Assembly: GCA_023898585.1 (NCBI GenBank)
Contig: CP060229.1
Span: 594,149-658,148, forward strand
Reading direction: 5' to 3'
DNA: 64,000 nt
From: Candidatus Nomurabacteria bacterium
Lineage (GTDB): Bacteria > Patescibacteriota > Minisyncoccia > Phycocordibacterales > UBA918
Shown: positions 5,803 to 60,679 of the stretch, piece after piece
Layout of the letters: each line of letters begins with the position of its first letter
How positions within the stretch are numbered: the first letter of the stretch is position 1
Position numbers and translations under genes: made by a program
The notes under the pieces: generated by a model
What the model was told of the DNA's origin: nothing
Seen by the model: the letters and a program-made list of their open reading frames with translations, nothing else
The model's database searches: none

Positions 5803-5851
5803 TAACTTTCTCATCCAGACACACTGAATAAAATTCTGATATAATACCGGT

Positions 5852-37346: not shown

Positions 37347-37374
37347 ATTGCGGGCTTAAAGGGCGTGGTATAAT
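37347..37374 (+). promoter_or_regulatory. Promoter with extended -10 (TGGTATAAT) upstream of the pilin array
   Basis: ATTGCG/TTGCGG -35 candidates 15-16 nt upstream of TATAAT, preceded by TGg. Confidence 0.45.
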
Positions 37375-37380
37375 TTTGAC

Positions 37381-39365: not shown

Positions 39366-39448
39366 ATTTCAAATAAAATATTTAAACTATAAGAAACCCC
39401 TGTGCACACGTAAAACAATCCATCTCCCCTCGGTGGTACAATATCACC

Positions 39449-47060: not shown

Positions 47061-47126
47061 AACAAAAAAGCAATTTACCTATCATTAATGATAGGTAAAT
47101 TGCTTTTTTGTCTATCATTAATGATA
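47061..47126. promoter_or_regulatory. Two operator-like perfect palindromes TATCATTAATGATA (47070-47083, extended to the 32-bp palindrome 47061-47092; and 47113-47126) overlapping the presumed promoter of the HTH gene
   Basis: Exact 14-bp self-complementary sequence read directly. Centres are about 43 bp apart. The second site abuts the start codon at 47137. Confidence 0.6.
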
Positions 47127-47136
47127 TGATTTTGAT

Positions 47137-47586
47137 ATGAGTAAAAATCTTAAACATGTTAAACCAAGTGAGCGAAAACGCGTTATCAATGCGCTCTATA
47201 AAACAGCACGCAGTATGCCCCAGAAAGATCCTGTCGTTACTTTCATTTCCAGTGTTCTCACAGAGAGTGAGCAAGTACTGATCGGGCGCAGACTACTTAT
47301 TGCGCAAATGATACTGGCGGGGAAGAAGCAAACCGAGATTGCTTATGAGTTGGACGTAAGTCCGAACACATTTAGTAGAACCAAGAAATGGCTAAGTGGC
47401 CAGATTCCTGAATATGACAAAGCTCTTAAAGAGTACCGGGCTGAGCAAAATCGATTGAAAGGTGATTCTAAACTTATTCACAGTAACTTCGCAACCCCTT
47501 TTTCGTTCACTGCTCTCAGGAAAAAGTATCCAGCTCACTTTCTTTTGTTTGCATTGATATACCAAGTGAATAAAAAGACTGACTAA
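47137..47586 (+). CDS. TrpR-like / YerC-YecD family helix-turn-helix regulator
   Basis: LTESEQVLIGRRLLIAQMILAGKKQTEIAYELDVSPNTFSRTKKWL matches the Trp-repressor-like YerC pattern (..RL.VA..L..G....EI....G.S..T.SR.K..L). Confidence 0.6.
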   Translation: MSKNLKHVKPSERKRVINALYKTARSMPQKDPVVTFISSVLTESEQVLIGRRLLIAQMILAGKKQTEIAYELDVSPNTFSRTKKWLSGQIPEYDKALKEYRAEQNRLKGDSKLIHSNFATPFSFTALRKKYPAHFLLFALIYQVNKKTD

Positions 47587-47590
47587 TGAC

Positions 47591-47667
47591 TATCATTAAT
47601 GATAGAAAAACTCATCTAATCACCACCTAGTGGCAACTTTAAAAACGTCTATCTATCATTAATGATA
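47591..47667. promoter_or_regulatory. Two further copies of TATCATTAATGATA (47591-47604, 47654-47667) downstream of the HTH gene, before its terminator
   Basis: Exact copies. Centres are about 63 bp apart. Confidence 0.6.
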
Positions 47668-47694
47668 GGTAGTTTGTTTCTAGATTGTGTGAGA

Positions 47695-47724
47695 AGAGCG
47701 CGACCCTTCGGGTCGCGCTTTTTT
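47695..47724 (+). terminator. Intrinsic terminator (AGCGCGACCC-ttcg-GGGTCGCGCT plus TTTTTT) 18 nt before the NADAR gene
   Basis: Perfect 10-bp GC stem, tetraloop and U6. Confidence 0.8.
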
Positions 47725-47742
47725 GTGCTAAGATTTGGAAAT

Positions 47743-48210
47743 ATGTCAGACATTTTTTTAGGCTTGGATTTTGATAAAAATTCAAGCGCACCAATAAACT
47801 TTCTTGAGAATCGATTTCACGATCTGTCACCGTTTTCCGCACTCGAAGTTGAGATTGATGGAGTAAGGTACAAAACAGCTGAACATGCTTATCATGCTTT
47901 ACGTGTGGTCCCTGAAGCACGAACAGAAATCATGAATGCTTCAAGTCCTTTGGAAGCGTGGCGTTTAGCTCAGGTGTGTAAAGAGAAAGACCAGCTAATA
48001 GAACATGATAAAGATGAATTAATGGAGAGAATCTTCCGAGCAAAATTGGCACAGCACGAAAGTGTGAAAGAAGTGTTGTTGCTTACTGGCGAAAGAGAGT
48101 TACTTAAAGTGTTTGATAAAGATTACTATTGGGGAACTGGCTCAGATGGAACTGGTCAAAACAAAATGGGAAAGCTTTGGATGAAACTGCGCGAAGAGAT
48201 ACGAAATTGA
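47743..48210 (+). CDS. NADAR / YbiA-family (DUF1768) protein
   Basis: FLENRFHDLSPFSALEVEIDGVRYKTAEHAYHALRV...AKL fits the YbiA/NADAR pattern (F.......LSNF.....E....Y.S.EH.Y...K). Confidence 0.6.
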   Translation: MSDIFLGLDFDKNSSAPINFLENRFHDLSPFSALEVEIDGVRYKTAEHAYHALRVVPEARTEIMNASSPLEAWRLAQVCKEKDQLIEHDKDELMERIFRAKLAQHESVKEVLLLTGERELLKVFDKDYYWGTGSDGTGQNKMGKLWMKLREEIRN

Positions 48211-48220
48211 CCAACTCTAT

Positions 48221-48757
48221 ATGAATAATTCAGTGAGGTTTATACCATTTTCCAGTAACATAATTTTTTACGACACGGAGTTTTCGTCGCTTGATCCATA
48301 TGTGGGTGAAATCCTGTCCATCGGAGCAGTTAAAATGGATGGTCGGGAGTTTTACTGTGAGCTGGAATACCGTGGTGAATATAGTGAATGGGTCAGAGAA
48401 AACTTATTAGTAACGCTCACCCAACCAAAACTTTCAAGAGAATTAGCCAGACAGAAGCTCTCTGAGTTCGTCGGTAATTCAAAACCTTACGCTCTAGCTT
48501 ACATAAACCAGTTTGATACCATCTATACCAAGAAGCTATTTGTTGGAGAAGGTGAAGAACCCTTCTACTGGTTGCCTTTAGACTTTGCTTCGATTTTGTT
48601 TGGTTTAGGTTATGATCCCGAGGTGTACAAATACGATAACTACACCAAGCTGGCTAAGGATTTGGGAGTTCTTGTGAAAGAGGGGCATACACACAATGCT
48701 TTAGACGACGCCCGTTTTTTAAAGGATGTCTATATGGCATTAATTAACAGAGGTTAA
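48221..48757 (+). CDS. DEDDh 3'-5' exonuclease, oligoribonuclease (Orn)-like
   Basis: Exo I IIFYDTEFSSLD, Exo II YINQFDTIY, Exo III HTHNALDDARFL. Size (178 aa) and block spacing parallel Orn. Confidence 0.65.
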   Translation: MNNSVRFIPFSSNIIFYDTEFSSLDPYVGEILSIGAVKMDGREFYCELEYRGEYSEWVRENLLVTLTQPKLSRELARQKLSEFVGNSKPYALAYINQFDTIYTKKLFVGEGEEPFYWLPLDFASILFGLGYDPEVYKYDNYTKLAKDLGVLVKEGHTHNALDDARFLKDVYMALINRG

Positions 48758-58318: not shown

Positions 58319-58768
58319 CTAAATCTTCCCTGCAATTTTTGTCACTATTTTTTCAAACTTTTCCCTATCCTCCCGATTGGGGGTCTTACCTACACACTTG
58401 AACTCTTTGAAACAGACTTTTTTCAAAACCCCGTTTCCTGCCTCTGCGTAGTAGGTTGCCAGTAATTCGCTCAGCCTTATTCCTTCGCCTTCAGGTGTCA
58501 TTCTGTGCATCACCCACAGCTCGTTTTTCGAAACGAGAGTGAAAAATTTTTCATTACCATCTCTGACAATCAATGGTTTTGGAACACCATTGTATTCGTG
58601 ACTTATTGCCACCGCCTGTATTGTCTTTAAGCTAGCGAGTATTTTTTCGTCACTTTGAACACTGCTGGCACCAAAGATGACAATGACTGACAAAAAAAGA
58701 ACTGTTACTTTACATCTGCATCTGCAATTAAACACAACACTCTCCCCGAAACTGACATGTTGAACCAA
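58319..58768 (-). CDS. Small secreted hypothetical protein
   Basis: Hydrophobic N-terminus. No known domain. Start codon uncertain. Confidence 0.35.
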   Translation of the reverse strand: MVQHVSFGESVVFNCRCRCKVTVLFLSVIVIFGASSVQSDEKILASLKTIQAVAISHEYNGVPKPLIVRDGNEKFFTLVSKNELWVMHRMTPEGEGIRLSELLATYYAEAGNGVLKKVCFKEFKCVGKTPNREDREKFEKIVTKIAGKI

Positions 58769-58924
58769 AAAGCCCAGCCGGTATATTACATCTTTATTGT
58801 TAACAAAGTCAAATTTTTATCTAAGAAACTGCAATATTTTTTCTTCCCTAAGGCTGGTTAGAGAGACTGGAAAGGTAAACCAAGTCCTCGCTTTCGTTGC
58901 TCATTTTGCTTATACTACACAATC

Positions 58925-60679
58925 ATGAGTGATACTGTGAGACAAATTAAGGACAGATTAAATATCATAGATATTGTTGCTCCTTACGTTGAACTACATA
59001 AAGCCGGTAAGAACTTTAAAGGCAAGTCGCCTTTTTCGGCCGAGAAGACCCCTTCTTTTTATGTGTCGCCGGACAGGGGAATGTATTACTGCTTTTCAAC
59101 TTCACAGGGAGGAGATATTTTCAACTTCATAGAAGCGATGGAAGGAGTTGATTTTAAGGGCGCGCTAAAAATATTGGCCGAAAAAGCCGGAGTCGAACTG
59201 GTAGCGGAAGATCCAAAGAAAAGAAGCGAGCGGGATAAAATGTATTCTTTACTTGAGGCGACGACTATTTTTTACTCTGAGTATTTGGAAAAGGACAGAG
59301 AGGCCGTTTCTTACCTGGAACAACGCGGGGTTAACAAGGAGACAATTTTAAAATGGAGAATCGGTTATGCACCCGGTCCACCAAATCACGGTTGGAGAGA
59401 GACAAAAGAACACCTGAATAAACTTGGGTATGTTAACGATGAAATCTTAAAAGCCGGTTTAATTAAAACAACCGATGTCGGTAAAGACCCTTTTGATGTC
59501 TTTCGCGATCGGATAGTTTTTCCGATGGCTGAACCTAGTGGTCAAACTGTTGCTTTTTCGGGAAGGATACTGCATCCGGACGATAAATCTCCCAAGTATG
59601 TCAATTCACCTGAGACTTTGTTGTACAAGAAATCCGAGTTGCTCTATGGCTACGATAAGGCTAAGACAGGAATCAGGAACTTGGACTTTTCTCTGATTGT
59701 TGAAGGACAGTTCGATGTTGTCATGTGCCATCAAGCCGGTTACCACAATACCGTGGCTGTCTCCGGCACGGCTCTGACTCTTCACCACGTGCAGTTGCTT
59801 GAGCGTTTATCTGATAAAGTAGTACTTGCTCTTGATGCCGATCGAGCCGGGATCAACGCCATGAAGAAAGGAGCGACTTTGTTACTTGGTCGTGGACTGG
59901 ATGTAAAAATAGCGGAATTGCCGATTGGAATGGACCCGGCTGATTTGATCAAGATAAATAAATCCGACTTCAGACGCGTAGTTGGGAAATCGGTGCATGT
60001 GATAGAATTCTTACTCCATGTAATAAGAAGAGAAATTGATGACGATCGTTCTTTTAAGTTAAAGGTTAGGGAAGAAGTGTTGCCATTTGTCTTGTTGTTA
60101 CCAAGTCGAATTGATCAAGAGCATTTTGTGTCTAGGGTTGCAAAATTCATTAATTCAACCACTGAAGCGGTGCGTTATGAACTCGATCATTTGCGGGAAA
60201 AAAGTGCCATCGAGAAGTCGCAAGGGCACGCTGAACAAGAGTCAACAATTCATGCTAACAAAACAACAAAAGAAGTTAATGGAGAAGATATAGTTTCTCG
60301 ACTTTTGTTGTTTTTGTCAGCCTCCGCCTTGGTGGTGGAAGATGAATTATGTAAAAAAATAAACGGTGAGCTAAAAAATGTTAGTGAAATCTCGGAACTG
60401 AAAAAACCTTCTGATTCAGAACTGGCGGGGACTGTCTTTACTTTGGAACAACAGTTTGCCGAACTACCCAAACAAGCGATCTTAAGTGAAATAACAGCAA
60501 AACTCAATCAATTAAAAACAAATTTGATAAGAACACGTTTGGCAGAATATCGTGGCATATTGGCGGACCCGGAAAATAGCCAAGACGAAAAAAGATTTAC
60601 CGAGGCGCTTAAATCCATCAGTAATTACGAAGAAATGCTTCGTGAACCGGCTTACTCCCCGGAAACGTTCCTCGACTGA
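58925..60679 (+). CDS. dnaG: DNA primase
   Basis: Zinc-binding domain (CFSTSQGGDIFNF) and TOPRIM (EGQFDVV...LALDADRAG). Confidence 0.9.
   Translation: MSDTVRQIKDRLNIIDIVAPYVELHKAGKNFKGKSPFSAEKTPSFYVSPDRGMYYCFSTSQGGDIFNFIEAMEGVDFKGALKILAEKAGVELVAEDPKKRSERDKMYSLLEATTIFYSEYLEKDREAVSYLEQRGVNKETILKWRIGYAPGPPNHGWRETKEHLNKLGYVNDEILKAGLIKTTDVGKDPFDVFRDRIVFPMAEPSGQTVAFSGRILHPDDKSPKYVNSPETLLYKKSELLYGYDKAKTGIRNLDFSLIVEGQFDVVMCHQAGYHNTVAVSGTALTLHHVQLLERLSDKVVLALDADRAGINAMKKGATLLLGRGLDVKIAELPIGMDPADLIKINKSDFRRVVGKSVHVIEFLLHVIRREIDDDRSFKLKVREEVLPFVLLLPSRIDQEHFVSRVAKFINSTTEAVRYELDHLREKSAIEKSQGHAEQESTIHANKTTKEVNGEDIVSRLLLFLSASALVVEDELCKKINGELKNVSEISELKKPSDSELAGTVFTLEQQFAELPKQAILSEITAKLNQLKTNLIRTRLAEYRGILADPENSQDEKRFTEALKSISNYEEMLREPAYSPETFLD

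What the first reader, a model, noticed from the sequence alone, without database searches (positions are those of the whole stretch)
47061..47667. Four exact copies of the 14-bp perfect palindrome TATCATTAATGATA bracketing the HTH regulator gene (two upstream over the promoter, two downstream before a strong terminator)
Identical self-complementary 14-mers sit at 47070, 47113, 47591 and 47654. The first is embedded in a 32-bp perfect palindrome. This is the expected operator geometry for a dimeric YerC/TrpR-like repressor autoregulating its own gene. The downstream pair could loop DNA or gate read-through into the NADAR gene, which starts only 18 nt past the terminator at 47695-47724. A 14-mer occurring four times within 600 bp is far beyond chance.
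Basis: seen in the sequence. Interest (0 to 1): 0.55.

Follow-up and report, generated by a model that had tools for sequence, protein, structure and literature searches.

The report
Repressor gene bracketed by own operators
Four identical 14-bp palindromes flank a small Trp-repressor-like gene in a Kaiserbacteria (CPR) genome, and about 90 related loci indicate that they are the protein's own binding sites, placed at both the start and the end of its gene, a layout shared by the whole protein family.

Summary
No other match with two or fewer mismatches exists in the 64 kb window.

The flanked gene (47137-47586) encodes a 149-aa TrpR-family protein with an extra C-terminal motif. It is neither the TrpR nor the YerC/HisR equivalog.

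In 65 of 79 usable homologous loci (33-70% identity), one near-palindromic 14-mer lies both upstream and downstream of the gene. Only 4 of 447 control ORFs show this. The half-site changes between lineages together with residue 77 at the start of the recognition helix: Asn with TATCAT, Asp with TATGAT/TTGAT. This is strong computational evidence that the protein binds these sites.

The promoter-proximal copy overlaps an extended -10 (TGATATGAT), which ends 7 nt before the ATG. That implies a leaderless mRNA and autorepression.

The downstream copy is anchored to the stop codon (median gap 12 nt), whatever the next gene or its orientation. It therefore does not gate NADAR, which has its own promoter beyond a terminator. 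I infer a LacI-O3-like roadblock and/or a loop anchor.

A second, unrelated family of small regulators in these genomes shows the same bracket. This is a new variant of a known kind. Nothing has been tested experimentally.

The parts
47062..47111 (.). 50-bp perfect palindrome containing copy 1 (O1 core 47080-47093). Its A6/T6 ends give it the form of a bidirectional intrinsic terminator, closing the rpsP-KH(KhpA) unit 25 nt after the KH stop. It is also the distal upstream operator.
   Evidence: I2: two 25-nt arms, 100% complementary. One search lists it as terminator-like.: -30.7 kcal/mol, z -12.2; exact core.
47113..47126 (.). Copy 2 (O2), the promoter-proximal operator. It ends 10 nt before the ATG and has no stable hairpin of its own.
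   Evidence: z -0.12; in the family the proximal copy starts at a median of -27 from the ATG and the most common gap is 10 nt.
47122..47130 (+). Inferred extended -10 promoter element TGATATGAT (TGn + TATGAT). It overlaps the right half of O2. The hexamer ends 7 nt before the A of the ATG, so the mRNA is inferred to be leaderless.
   Evidence: Sequence; only 5 of 56 window ORFs have an SD-like sequence, and many have TAnnnT or TGnTAnnnT at -12 to -15. TAnnnT straddles the right edge of the proximal copy in 34/68 loci against 65/274 for all other copies and orientations (p = 4e-5); the hexamer-to-ATG distance is 7 nt in 13 loci and 7-10 nt in 23 of 34.
47137..47586 (+). Gene for the 149-aa TrpR-family DNA-binding protein (GenBank USN91894.1 / MCA9354926.1, Candidatus Kaiserbacteria). 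The recognition helix starts S75-P76-N77-T78. The C-terminal motif KYPxHFLLF is absent from TrpR and HisR.
47591..47604 (.). Copy 3 (O3), the 3' operator. It begins 4 nt after the TAA stop (47584-47586).
   Evidence: in the family the gap from stop to site is 20 nt or less in 53/67 loci, with a median of 12.
47649..47672 (.). Copy 4 (O4 core 47654-47667) within a 24-nt near-palindrome CTATC...GGTAG, followed by a T-rich tail. It is the second 3' operator, 63 bp centre-to-centre from O3.
   Evidence: -13.2 kcal/mol, z -4.4.
47694..47724 (+). GC-rich intrinsic terminator that closes the regulator's transcription unit.
   Evidence: I11.: -25.3 kcal/mol, z -5.9.
47726..47734 (+). Inferred extended -10 (TGcTAAGAT) of the NADAR gene (ATG at 47743). 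It lies downstream of the terminator and carries no operator. It marks the boundary of the element and shows that NADAR has its own promoter.
   Evidence: Sequence. NADAR Pfam match; general promoter pattern in this genome.

Best explanation
The four palindromes are operators for the dimeric TrpR-family protein encoded between them. Each half-site, TATCAT, is read by the N-terminus of the recognition helix (S75-P76-N77-T78...R81).

O2 overlaps the extended -10 (TGATATGAT) of a promoter whose transcript starts at or next to the ATG, giving a leaderless mRNA. A bound repressor would exclude RNA polymerase, which is classical negative autoregulation. O1 lies 33 bp upstream inside the terminator hairpin of the preceding operon, and is an auxiliary operator.

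O3 and O4, placed directly after the stop codon, are further binding sites for the same protein. They belong to the regulator gene itself, not to the neighbouring gene. Most likely a repressor bound there blocks elongating polymerase at the end of the gene, as LacI does at O3. Because the site abuts the stop codon, the stalled transcript would end before or within the stop codon. The site may also serve as the second anchor of a roughly 480-bp loop that raises occupancy at the promoter.

What the computations show: the sites exist; the bracket is a family-wide trait; site and protein co-vary; and the positions relative to the ATG, the -10 and the stop codon are constrained.

What is inferred: binding itself, the leaderless transcription start, repression, and the roadblock or loop. 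My estimates are: binding by its own product 0.9; promoter autorepression 0.8; 3' roadblock as the main role of the downstream copies 0.35-0.4; looping as the main role 0.3.
For: (1) Family and fold. Pfam Trp_repressor scores 39.1 bits against a cut-off of 27. The AF2 model (pLDDT 79.8) matches HisR-type and E. coli TrpR structures with probability 1.0 and TM 0.55-0.70. A profile search of the PDB aligns S75-P76-N77-T78-F79-S80-R81 with TrpR I79-A80-T81-I82-T83-R84. These are the DNA-contact residues listed in PMC9413887.

(2) Conservation of the bracket. Every one of the first nine homologous loci has the motif only next to the gene, on both sides. Overall, 65 of 79 eligible loci have a matched near-palindromic 14-mer upstream and downstream, against 4 of 447 control ORFs. 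Counting copies gives 97 upstream, 89 downstream, none inside the gene and 3 distant in 596 kb.

(3) Co-variation. Residue 77 is Asn with ATCAT half-sites (29 proteins), Asp with [AT]TGAT (23 of 23), Ala/Gly/Thr/Arg with [AT]CCAT, and Ser with TTCAT. On an NJ tree built with the helix masked, N and D types are interleaved, with about 15 changes of each character.

(4) Promoter geometry.

(5) The downstream copy is anchored to the stop codon. The gap is 20 nt or less in 53/67 loci, the median relative position in the intergenic region is 0.07, and 37/39 lie in the proximal half (p = 3e-9). This holds whatever the orientation of the neighbouring gene. The downstream copies show no enrichment of promoter hexamers on either strand.

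(6) Precedent. LacI bound at O3, at the 3' end of lacI, roadblocks lacI transcription. The truncated mRNA leads to SsrA tagging (PMC3711431).
Against: There are no binding, transcription-start or 3'-end data; everything is comparative.

14 of 79 loci lack a detectable matched pair.

The upstream-to-downstream distance (445-649 bp) shows no helical phasing (Rayleigh p > 0.2), so looping gains no support.

tmRNA and SmpB were not found in the window or in 944 kb of related loci. About one copy would be expected in that much sequence, so this says little, but the roadblock-tagging step is untested.

The palindromes run well beyond any plausible protein contact. Self-complementarity stays above background out to 18 nt from the centre, with different base pairs in different copies. 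This is not explained by operator function. It is also not tied to neighbouring 3' ends, T-runs or G-U wobble.

A few consensus sites lie elsewhere in related genomes. The protein probably has other targets that I could not enumerate for this genome.
Confidence: 0.75

Rival explanations
1. The downstream pair is a regulatory gate for the next gene (NADAR). A repressor bound at O3/O4 would control read-through or the neighbour's promoter.
For: O3 and O4 lie between the regulator and NADAR. A weak promoter-like match uses the TATCAT of O4 as its -10. 33 of 59 downstream neighbours in the family are co-directional.
Against: The downstream copy is present with NUDIX, trmD, ksgA or a hypothetical gene downstream, and with a convergent rpoC. 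26 of 59 neighbours are convergent. The copy hugs the regulator's stop codon, not the neighbour's start. TAnnnT is not enriched at downstream copies on either strand (23-24%). In the window a -25 kcal/mol terminator separates O4 from NADAR, which has its own TGcTAAGAT 9 nt before its ATG. In a genome with almost no SD sequences, an internal AUG on a read-through transcript would be poorly translated (inference).
Confidence: 0.07
2. The palindromes work as RNA or DNA hairpins, as terminators, mRNA-end stabilisers or processing sites. Their association with the HTH gene would be incidental or secondary.
For: Copy 1 is a textbook bidirectional terminator, and copy 4 is a moderate hairpin with a U-rich tail. 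In the family the palindromes reach 46-54 bp. Their outer arms differ between copies yet stay complementary. The same 18-mer forms the stem of ordinary terminators in Flavobacteriia and Lactococcus.
Against: The core sequence, not just the ability to pair, is identical upstream and downstream, and it changes together with one residue of the recognition helix. O2 has no stable structure. T-runs follow only 9 of 74 first downstream copies. Arm length is unrelated to whether a gene's 3' end is adjacent. Mismatches in the arms show no G-U bias (8 G/T, 5 A/C, 24 other). No Rfam family matches.
Confidence: 0.05
3. The unit palindrome-gene-palindrome is a small mobile or recombination cassette, analogous to dif modules, REP/RAYT or IS200/IS605 ends. 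The palindromes would be recombination sites.
For: The module is compact, with sites abutting the start and stop codons. It sits in different contexts: KH|trmD in Kaiserbacteria, dnaG|rpoC in others, and next to uvrD/ksgA and T4SS-like genes in L008. A related bracketed gene in L223 is flanked by a 45-nt direct repeat.
Against: The protein is only an HTH with no catalytic domain. There is one copy per locus and no relatives in 2.9 million viral contigs. Synteny rnr/rpsP/KH/regulator/trmD is kept across proteins of 51-70% identity, which indicates vertical descent. The outer arms of the upstream and downstream copies differ, unlike target duplications. Protein-site co-variation is what an operator predicts.
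Confidence: 0.04
4. The protein is an ordinary regulator of a dispersed regulon. The sites around its own gene would merely be the best-conserved members, so the bracket has no special function.
For: Extra full-consensus intergenic sites occur in two MAGs: serS/dprA-topA and DUF3467|hypothetical in JTS-AC154, and upstream of rplJ, after a pfkB kinase, and recG|malic-enzyme-like in ERR599159_bin.42. Three distant copies were found in 596 kb. TrpR and HisR have small regulons plus autoregulation (PMC9413887).
Against: A regulon does not explain why a copy sits within 20 nt of the stop codon in 53/67 loci. The distant targets share no function or position. This is more a complement to the main explanation than a rival.
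Confidence: 0.09

Closest known systems
E. coli TrpR (trp repressor) and its autoregulated trpR operator
   Same: Same Pfam family and fold. It acts as a dimeric HTH protein on a palindromic operator of roughly 18-20 bp with an A/T-rich centre. The contact residues Thr81 and Arg84 are conserved as T78 and R81, and the pocket residues T44 and R54 as T42 and R52 (TrpR numbering from my own knowledge). The operator overlaps the promoter of its own gene.
   Different: It scores below the TrpR equivalog cut-off (22.9 against 67.25). It carries about 45 extra C-terminal residues with an invariant KYPxHFLLF motif. The half-site is TATCAT rather than GTACT. No trp genes are nearby. TrpR has no operator at the 3' end of its gene. 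The ligand is unknown.
HisR (YerC/YecD), the histidine repressor of Firmicutes (PMC9413887)
   Same: These are the closest solved structures (3kor, 3frw, 3g1c). It also has lineage-specific 20-bp palindromic motifs, and about half of hisR genes carry an upstream autoregulatory site.
   Different: It scores below the YerC/YecD cut-off (21.2 against 42.2). The HisR motif is cacTTTAn6TAAAgtg. HisR is under 100 aa and controls his and transport genes. Here the conserved targets are the two ends of the regulator's own gene.
LacI autoregulation through O3 at the 3' end of lacI (roadblock, truncated mRNA, SsrA tagging; PMC3711431, citing Abo et al. 2000)
   Same: An operator for the gene's own product lies at the 3' end of the gene. 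This would give a post-initiation layer of negative autoregulation.
   Different: O3 is a weak site that depends on looping to O1, and lacI has no operator on its own promoter. Here the 3' sites are full-consensus copies, occur family-wide, and are combined with a promoter operator. Truncation and tagging are untested.
Phage lambda CI with OR and OL
   Same: The repressor gene is transcribed as a leaderless mRNA (PMC10491246) and is bracketed by operator clusters on both sides. Those clusters cooperate by looping to tune autoregulation (established knowledge).
   Different: OL and OR are 2.4 kb apart and each controls a lytic promoter. CI has a dedicated oligomerisation domain. Here the sites are about 480 bp apart, the 3' site controls no obvious promoter, and no phasing is seen.
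Intrinsic terminators and REP-type extragenic palindromes
   Same: Copy 1 and some family copies are long perfect hairpins, a few with A/T runs.
   Different: The core sequence is conserved and co-varies with the protein. There are few copies per genome. T-runs are rare, and there is no RAYT/HUH gene.

Membership tests
TrpR family (Pfam PF01371, TrpR-like fold) | Sequence match above the curated family threshold | tested here: met
   39.1 bits against a cut-off of 27, residues 18-99. All 38 homologues carry PF01371.
TrpR family (Pfam PF01371, TrpR-like fold) | All-helical TrpR fold with the HTH as helices D/E | tested here: met
   AF2 model with pLDDT 79.8. Foldseek probability 1.0 to 3frw, 3kor, 3g1c, 1trr and 1tro, with TM (target) 0.55-0.70.
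TrpR family (Pfam PF01371, TrpR-like fold) | Palindromic operator of about 18-20 bp, recognised by the N-terminus of the recognition helix | tested here: met
   Computational only. Self-complementarity is 0.85 or more out to 9 nt from the centre. Residue 77, which aligns with TrpR A80, co-varies with the half-site.
TrpR family (Pfam PF01371, TrpR-like fold) | Amino-acid corepressor needed for binding; intertwined dimer | not testable with these tools
   T42, R52 and R81 align with the pocket residues T44, R54 and R84. The invariant W85 replaces S88. The ligand is unknown.
TrpR proper (NCBIfam TIGR01321 equivalog) | Score above the equivalog cut-off; control of trp/aro genes | tested here: not met
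   22.9 bits against 67.25. No trp genes lie near the gene in any locus.
YerC/YecD = HisR (NCBIfam TIGR02531) | Score above the cut-off; motif cacTTTAn6TAAAgtg; his/transport targets | tested here: not met
   21.2 bits against 42.2. The motif here is TATCATnnATGATA. The HisR features are taken from PMC9413887.
Promoter-operator negative autoregulation | The site of the gene's own product overlaps the core promoter of its gene | tested here: inconclusive
   O2 overlaps the TGATATGAT that ends 7 nt before the ATG. The enrichment is family-wide, 34/68 against 65/274. The promoter and transcription start are predicted, not mapped.
3'-operator roadblock autoregulation (LacI-O3 type) | Operator at the 3' end of its own gene, close enough that a stalled polymerase has not transcribed the stop codon | tested here: met
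   The window gap is 4 nt. In the family the gap is 20 nt or less in 53/67 loci, median 12. That polymerase stalls roughly 14 nt ahead of a roadblock is from my own knowledge.
3'-operator roadblock autoregulation (LacI-O3 type) | Repressor-dependent truncated transcripts; tmRNA tagging of the product | not testable with these tools
   No tmRNA or SmpB was found in the window or in 944 kb of loci. This is uninformative because whole genomes could not be read.
Repression loop between flanking operators (lambda CI / LacI / GalR type) | Helical phasing of the two operators; higher-order oligomerisation | tested here: inconclusive
   No periodicity at 10-11.3 bp in 67 upstream-to-downstream distances (Rayleigh p 0.22-0.48). 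Phasing matters little at about 480 bp. Whether the C-terminal motif mediates oligomerisation is untested.
Intrinsic terminator | Stable GC-containing hairpin followed by a U-tract | tested here: not met
   Met by copy 1 only. O2 and O3 have no stable hairpin or no U-tract. In the family, T-rich 3' edges occur in 9 of 74 first downstream copies.
REP/RAYT or IS200/IS605-type hairpin-ended elements | HUH/Y1 transposase; many dispersed copies | tested here: not met
   The protein is HTH only. There are 3 distant copies in 596 kb and no viral relatives.

The most novel reading that the evidence does not exclude
Bracketing may be a general design in Patescibacteria. Small repressors would place a full-strength copy of their own operator on the leaderless promoter and a second copy immediately after the stop codon. 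One protein would then control both initiation and completion of its own transcript, by a roadblock that yields stop-less mRNA and/or by a loop closed through the family-specific C-terminal motif. This could suit cells so small that a regulator is present in only a few copies.

The unrelated PaaX_M/Cas2-like small regulators show the same layout in 5 of 5 loci examined. The sequence-independent extension of the palindromes to 30-54 bp would then be either a by-product (template-switch 'perfection' of quasi-palindromes) or a sign that cruciform or hairpin DNA is part of the mechanism.
Probability: 0.3. Interest if true: 0.8.

Novelty: new variant of a known kind. Interest (0 to 1): 0.6.

Why it matters
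Almost nothing is known about transcriptional regulation in the Candidate Phyla Radiation, and none of these organisms is genetically tractable. This analysis yields a predicted protein-operator pair for a family of at least 377 clusters at 50% identity. It includes a one-residue specificity code (Asn77 with C, Asp77 with G at half-site position 4) that can be tested directly in vitro or in E. coli.

The conserved operator abutting the stop codon suggests that 3'-end autoregulation is used systematically here. Until now it was known essentially from lacI O3. If confirmed, the compact module of about 520 bp (operator, leaderless gene, operator) would also be a ready-made, orthogonal, self-limiting expression unit.

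Tried and rejected
(1) Genome-wide count of the 14-mer. Collection scans stop at 120 stretches. The viral test scan was filled with single chance hits. I therefore used the 18-mer CCTATCATTAATGATAGG on the genome collection. The source genome is not in that collection, so its regulon could not be counted.

(2) A second TrpR-like gene in the window at 58319-58768(-), the position where relatives carry the gene. It is not a homologue.

(3) Terminator hypothesis for the downstream copies. T-runs are rare, and arm length is unrelated to neighbour orientation.

(4) RNA-level selection. There is no G-U bias and no Rfam family matches.

(5) Loop phasing. No signal.

(6) Antisense or downstream promoter in the 3' copies. 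TAnnnT is at background level.

(7) Phage or mobile origin. There are no relatives in viral contigs, and no PADLOC hit for the regulator or NADAR.

(8) tmRNA/SmpB search in the held sequence. Nothing found, which is uninformative.

(9) Literature. No paper was found on a TrpR-like family or bracketing palindromes in CPR. One search call failed on term length.
Full report
OBSERVATION. An exact search finds TATCATTAATGATA at 47080, 47113, 47591 and 47654, and none in 100 shuffles. The finding's '47070' is a slip for 47080. Allowing up to 3 mismatches adds only five 3-mismatch matches, against 3.45 expected by chance. Copy 1 is the centre of a 50-bp perfect palindrome, 47062-47111, with A6/T6 ends. 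As RNA it folds at -30.7 kcal/mol (z -12.2) and looks like the bidirectional terminator of the rpsP-KH unit. Copy 2 has no structure of its own (z -0.1). Copy 3 is weak. Copy 4 is a moderate hairpin of -13.2 kcal/mol. A separate GC-rich terminator follows at 47694-47724.

THE GENE AND ITS SETTING. ORF 47137-47586 encodes 149 aa that match Pfam Trp_repressor above threshold. The protein scores below the NCBIfam cut-offs for both TrpR and YerC/YecD. An AF2 model built on 22 homologues (pLDDT 79.8) matches HisR-type structures and E. coli TrpR with probability 1.0 over the first 100 or so residues. Residues 124-148 form two extra helices carrying an invariant KYPxHFLLF motif. The identical protein is annotated 'helix-turn-helix domain-containing protein' in Candidatus Kaiserbacteria, on a 994,774-bp contig. 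The local gene order is rnr(-), rpsP, KH/KhpA, regulator, NADAR, DEDDh exonuclease, trmD, then rpoB and rpoC. The family comprises 377 clusters at 50% identity at E <= 1e-10. It has no relatives in viral contigs.

THE BRACKET IS A FAMILY TRAIT. Contigs encoding homologues of 44-70% identity all carry the motif, or a near variant, immediately upstream and immediately downstream of the gene, and nowhere else in up to 20 kb. This holds although the context differs. In Kaiserbacteria the gene lies between KH and NUDIX, or KH and trmD. In L006, L007 and L009 it lies between dnaG-rpoD and a convergent rpoC. In L008 it lies between a uvrD-like gene and ksgA.

A scan of metagenome contigs gave at least 357 relatives, of which 80 loci were kept. 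A matched near-palindromic 14-mer on both sides is found in 65 of 79 loci with enough flanking DNA, against 4 of 447 control ORFs in the same loci. Counting copies with at most 1 mismatch to each locus's own core gives 97 upstream, 89 downstream, none within the gene, and 3 more than 450 bp away in 596 kb.

PROTEIN-SITE CO-VARIATION. The core differs between lineages. Examples are TATCAT-TA/AT/CG-ATGATA, TATGATATATCATA, CTTGATATATCAAG, TACCATATATGGTA, TTCCATATATGGAA, TTTCATATATGAAA and TATCTTATAAGATA. The central 2 bp are the least constrained and may be asymmetric (AC/GT). This is the pattern of two half-sites read by a dimer.

Residue 77, at the start of the recognition helix, follows the half-site. 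It is Asn with ATCAT (29 non-identical proteins), Asp with [AT]TGAT (23 of 23), Ala/Gly/Thr/Arg with [AT]CCAT, and Ser with TTCAT. The profile alignment to solved HisR structures places N77 at the position of TrpR Ala80, T78 at Thr81 and R81 at Arg84. These are DNA-contact residues according to PMC9413887. On an NJ tree built with this segment masked, N- and D-type proteins are interleaved, with about 15 parsimony changes in each character. The association is therefore not one inherited event, although a tree of such short proteins is noisy. The downstream copies follow the same code as the upstream ones, so they too are under selection for binding and not merely for pairing.

PROMOTER COPY. 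The proximal upstream 14-mer starts at a median of -27 from the ATG (IQR -35 to -24). The commonest gap to the ATG is 10 nt, and it holds no Shine-Dalgarno sequence. In the window only 5 of 56 ORFs have an SD-like sequence. Many have TAnnnT, often TGnTAnnnT, ending about 7 nt before the ATG. Leaderless mRNAs therefore seem to be the rule in this genome.

The last two bases of O2 plus the next four give TATGAT, preceded by TG. This extended -10, TGATATGAT (47122-47130), ends 7 nt before A47137. Across the family, TAnnnT straddles the right edge of the proximal copy in 34/68 loci, against 65/274 for all other copies and orientations (p = 4e-5). The hexamer-to-ATG distance is 7 nt in 13 loci and 7-10 nt in 23 of 34. 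A bound dimer would therefore occlude the -10, giving autorepression. This step is inferred.

DOWNSTREAM COPY. The gap from the stop codon to the 14-mer is 20 nt or less in 53 of 67 non-redundant loci (median 12). The site sometimes overlaps the stop codon. In the window the gap is 4 nt. Within downstream intergenic regions of at least 80 nt, the site's median relative position is 0.07, and 37 of 39 sites lie in the proximal half (p = 3e-9). Downstream neighbours are co-directional in 33 loci and convergent in 26. Upstream neighbours are co-directional in 35 and divergent in 26. Downstream copies are not enriched for -10-like hexamers on either strand, and few have T-runs. They are therefore not promoters of the next gene, not antisense promoters, and mostly not intrinsic terminators.

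In the window, NADAR is separated from O4 by a strong terminator and has its own TGcTAAGAT 9 nt before its ATG.

The known case that fits best is lacI. LacI bound at O3, at the 3' end of lacI, stalls polymerase. The truncated mRNA lacks a stop codon, and the product is SsrA-tagged and degraded (PMC3711431). A roadblocked polymerase has its active site roughly 14 nt behind the obstacle (my own knowledge). A site beginning within about 20 nt of the stop codon would therefore leave the stop codon untranscribed. This explains the tight anchoring. It remains an inference, and I could not verify tmRNA or SmpB in these genomes.

Looping between the two ends is the other candidate. The lambda OR/OL arrangement is the precedent, and lambda cI is also leaderless (PMC10491246). 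The extra C-terminal motif could mediate dimer-dimer contacts. However, the upstream-to-downstream distances show no helical periodicity.

UNEXPLAINED: THE LONG ARMS. Self-complementarity is about 0.97 at positions 1-7 from the centre, 0.86 at 8-9, about 0.6 at 11-13 and 0.40-0.46 at 15-18. It reaches the 0.29 background only at position 19. Out to position 13, the copies within one locus mostly share the same bases, which suggests an extended operator of about 26 bp. At positions 14-18, pairs with different bases in different copies outnumber identical ones, so complementarity itself is being maintained.

This is not linked to adjacent gene ends, U-tracts or G-U wobble. An RNA role therefore has no support. 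The remaining options are cruciform or hairpin DNA, or neutral 'perfection' of quasi-palindromes by template switching (a mechanism I know from the literature, not tested here).

OTHER TARGETS. The 18-mer scan of species-representative genomes gave 18 stretches. About ten are unrelated taxa in which the sequence is simply the stem of a GCC...GGC terminator. Three Patescibacteria MAGs carry the gene with flanking sites (L136, L140, L145). Two of them have extra consensus sites in other intergenic regions. In JTS-AC154 these lie in the divergent serS/dprA-topA region and between DUF3467 and a hypothetical gene. In ERR599159_bin.42 they lie upstream of rplJ-rplL, after a pfkB kinase facing a pilin-like gene, and between recG and a malic-enzyme-like gene. 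No common theme emerges. A small regulon is likely but undefined.

A SECOND BRACKETED FAMILY. One of the four control 'hits' is a PaaX_M/Cas2-like-domain protein of 172 aa in L214. A 40-bp perfect palindrome ends 7 nt before its ATG. A 42-bp palindrome with the same 22-bp core starts 6 nt after its stop. Four further homologues (40-58% identity) each carry their own lineage-specific sequence on both sides. A sixth homologue, in L223, is flanked by a 45-nt direct repeat. The layout is therefore not peculiar to the TrpR-like family.

COMPARISON AND VERDICT. The element works like a TrpR/HisR-type autoregulated operator and belongs to the TrpR Pfam family, but it is neither TrpR nor HisR. Its distinctive feature is a full-consensus operator anchored to the stop codon and conserved across the family. 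This has a single-gene precedent in lacI O3 and a looser one in lambda OR/OL. I found no description of it for this family or for CPR bacteria in the searchable literature. I class it as a new variant of a known kind, of moderate-to-good interest. The binding and promoter model carries high confidence. The function of the 3' copies remains an open mechanistic question.

Noticed in passing
L214:5258-5870; L228:1380-2080; L229:640-1320; L230:1438-2130; L231:1446-2085: A second, unrelated family of small DNA-binding proteins shows the same bracket in 5 of 5 loci examined. The proteins carry a PaaX_M/Cas2-like domain, are about 175 aa, and are often annotated 'Cas2' in Yanofskybacteria/Paceibacterota MAGs. 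Each locus has a lineage-specific palindrome just upstream of the ATG and just after the stop. In L214 the shared core is AATCTTTGCGTACGCAAAGATT.
   Followed up: partly
L223:8225-8957: A homologue of that PaaX_M-like gene (8863-8279, minus strand) is flanked by a direct repeat of about 45 nt rather than a palindrome. The repeat is AAATTACGACAAAATTnTACGGCCGTTGGGTTTGTGGTAnCATTT.
   Followed up: no
L161:17841-18700; L162:9685-9730: trmD is bracketed by palindromes with the core AACCTTTCATTCGAATGAAAGGTT and differing outer arms. The same core follows trmD in L162. In L202, L204 and L210 a repeated CCCTGCCTGCCGGCAGGCAGGG brackets a GDP-mannose dehydratase gene. Conserved-core palindromes with variable arms seem common in these genomes.
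   Followed up: no
window, whole (e.g. 5836-5851, 37367-37380, 39435-39448, 47726-47742): Only 5 of 56 long ORFs have an SD-like sequence. Many have TAnnnT or TGnTAnnnT ending about 7 nt before the ATG. This suggests that leaderless mRNAs with extended -10 promoters predominate in this Kaiserbacteria genome.
   Followed up: partly
window 47743-48757; L001:837-1268; L005:4457-4544; L009:18826-19260: The slot between the regulator and trmD holds variable cargo. The window has NADAR plus a DEDDh/RNase T-like exonuclease. L001 has a NUDIX hydrolase. L005 has nothing. In L009, NADAR sits next to trmD without the regulator. PADLOC gives no defence-system hit for NADAR, and only a generic DEDDh hit for the exonuclease.
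   Followed up: partly
L130:2329; L137:3250; L138:169; L141:6644; L144:3328: Full-consensus CTACC-TATCATTAATGATA-GGTAG sites lie away from the regulator gene in two MAGs. Their contexts are: divergent serS/dprA-topA; DUF3467|hypothetical; upstream of rplJ-rplL; after a pfkB kinase facing a pilin-like gene; and recG|malic-enzyme-like. They may form a small regulon with a DNA-uptake or recombination flavour, but no clear theme emerges.
   Followed up: partly
L131, L139, L142, L143, L146: The same 18-mer CCTATCATTAATGATAGG forms the stem of ordinary GCC...GGC + T-run terminators in Polaribacter, Olleya, Algibacter and Lactococcus. These are chance reuses of a palindrome, unrelated to the CPR system.
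   Followed up: yes
window 47137-47586 (residues 42, 52, 81, 85): T42, R52 and R81 align with the TrpR corepressor-pocket residues T44, R54 and R84. An invariant Trp (W85) replaces TrpR S88, which lines that pocket. A built-in indole might make binding ligand-independent. This is speculation.
   Followed up: no
window 58921-58934: A 3-mismatch match (AATCATGAGTGATA) overlaps the dnaG start codon. In more distant relatives (L006, L007, L009) the regulator gene sits directly next to dnaG. This could be chance, since 3.45 such matches are expected in the window.
   Followed up: no
window 47662-48210: An ATG inside copy 4 opens an ORF in frame with NADAR, giving 182 aa against 155 aa. The extension would be translated through the terminator hairpin, and the Pfam match starts after the 47743 ATG, so 47743 is the likelier start.
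   Followed up: partly
L007 and L145, downstream of the regulator gene: A further palindrome, GTCACTAGTGAC, occurs downstream of the regulator gene in both loci.
   Followed up: no
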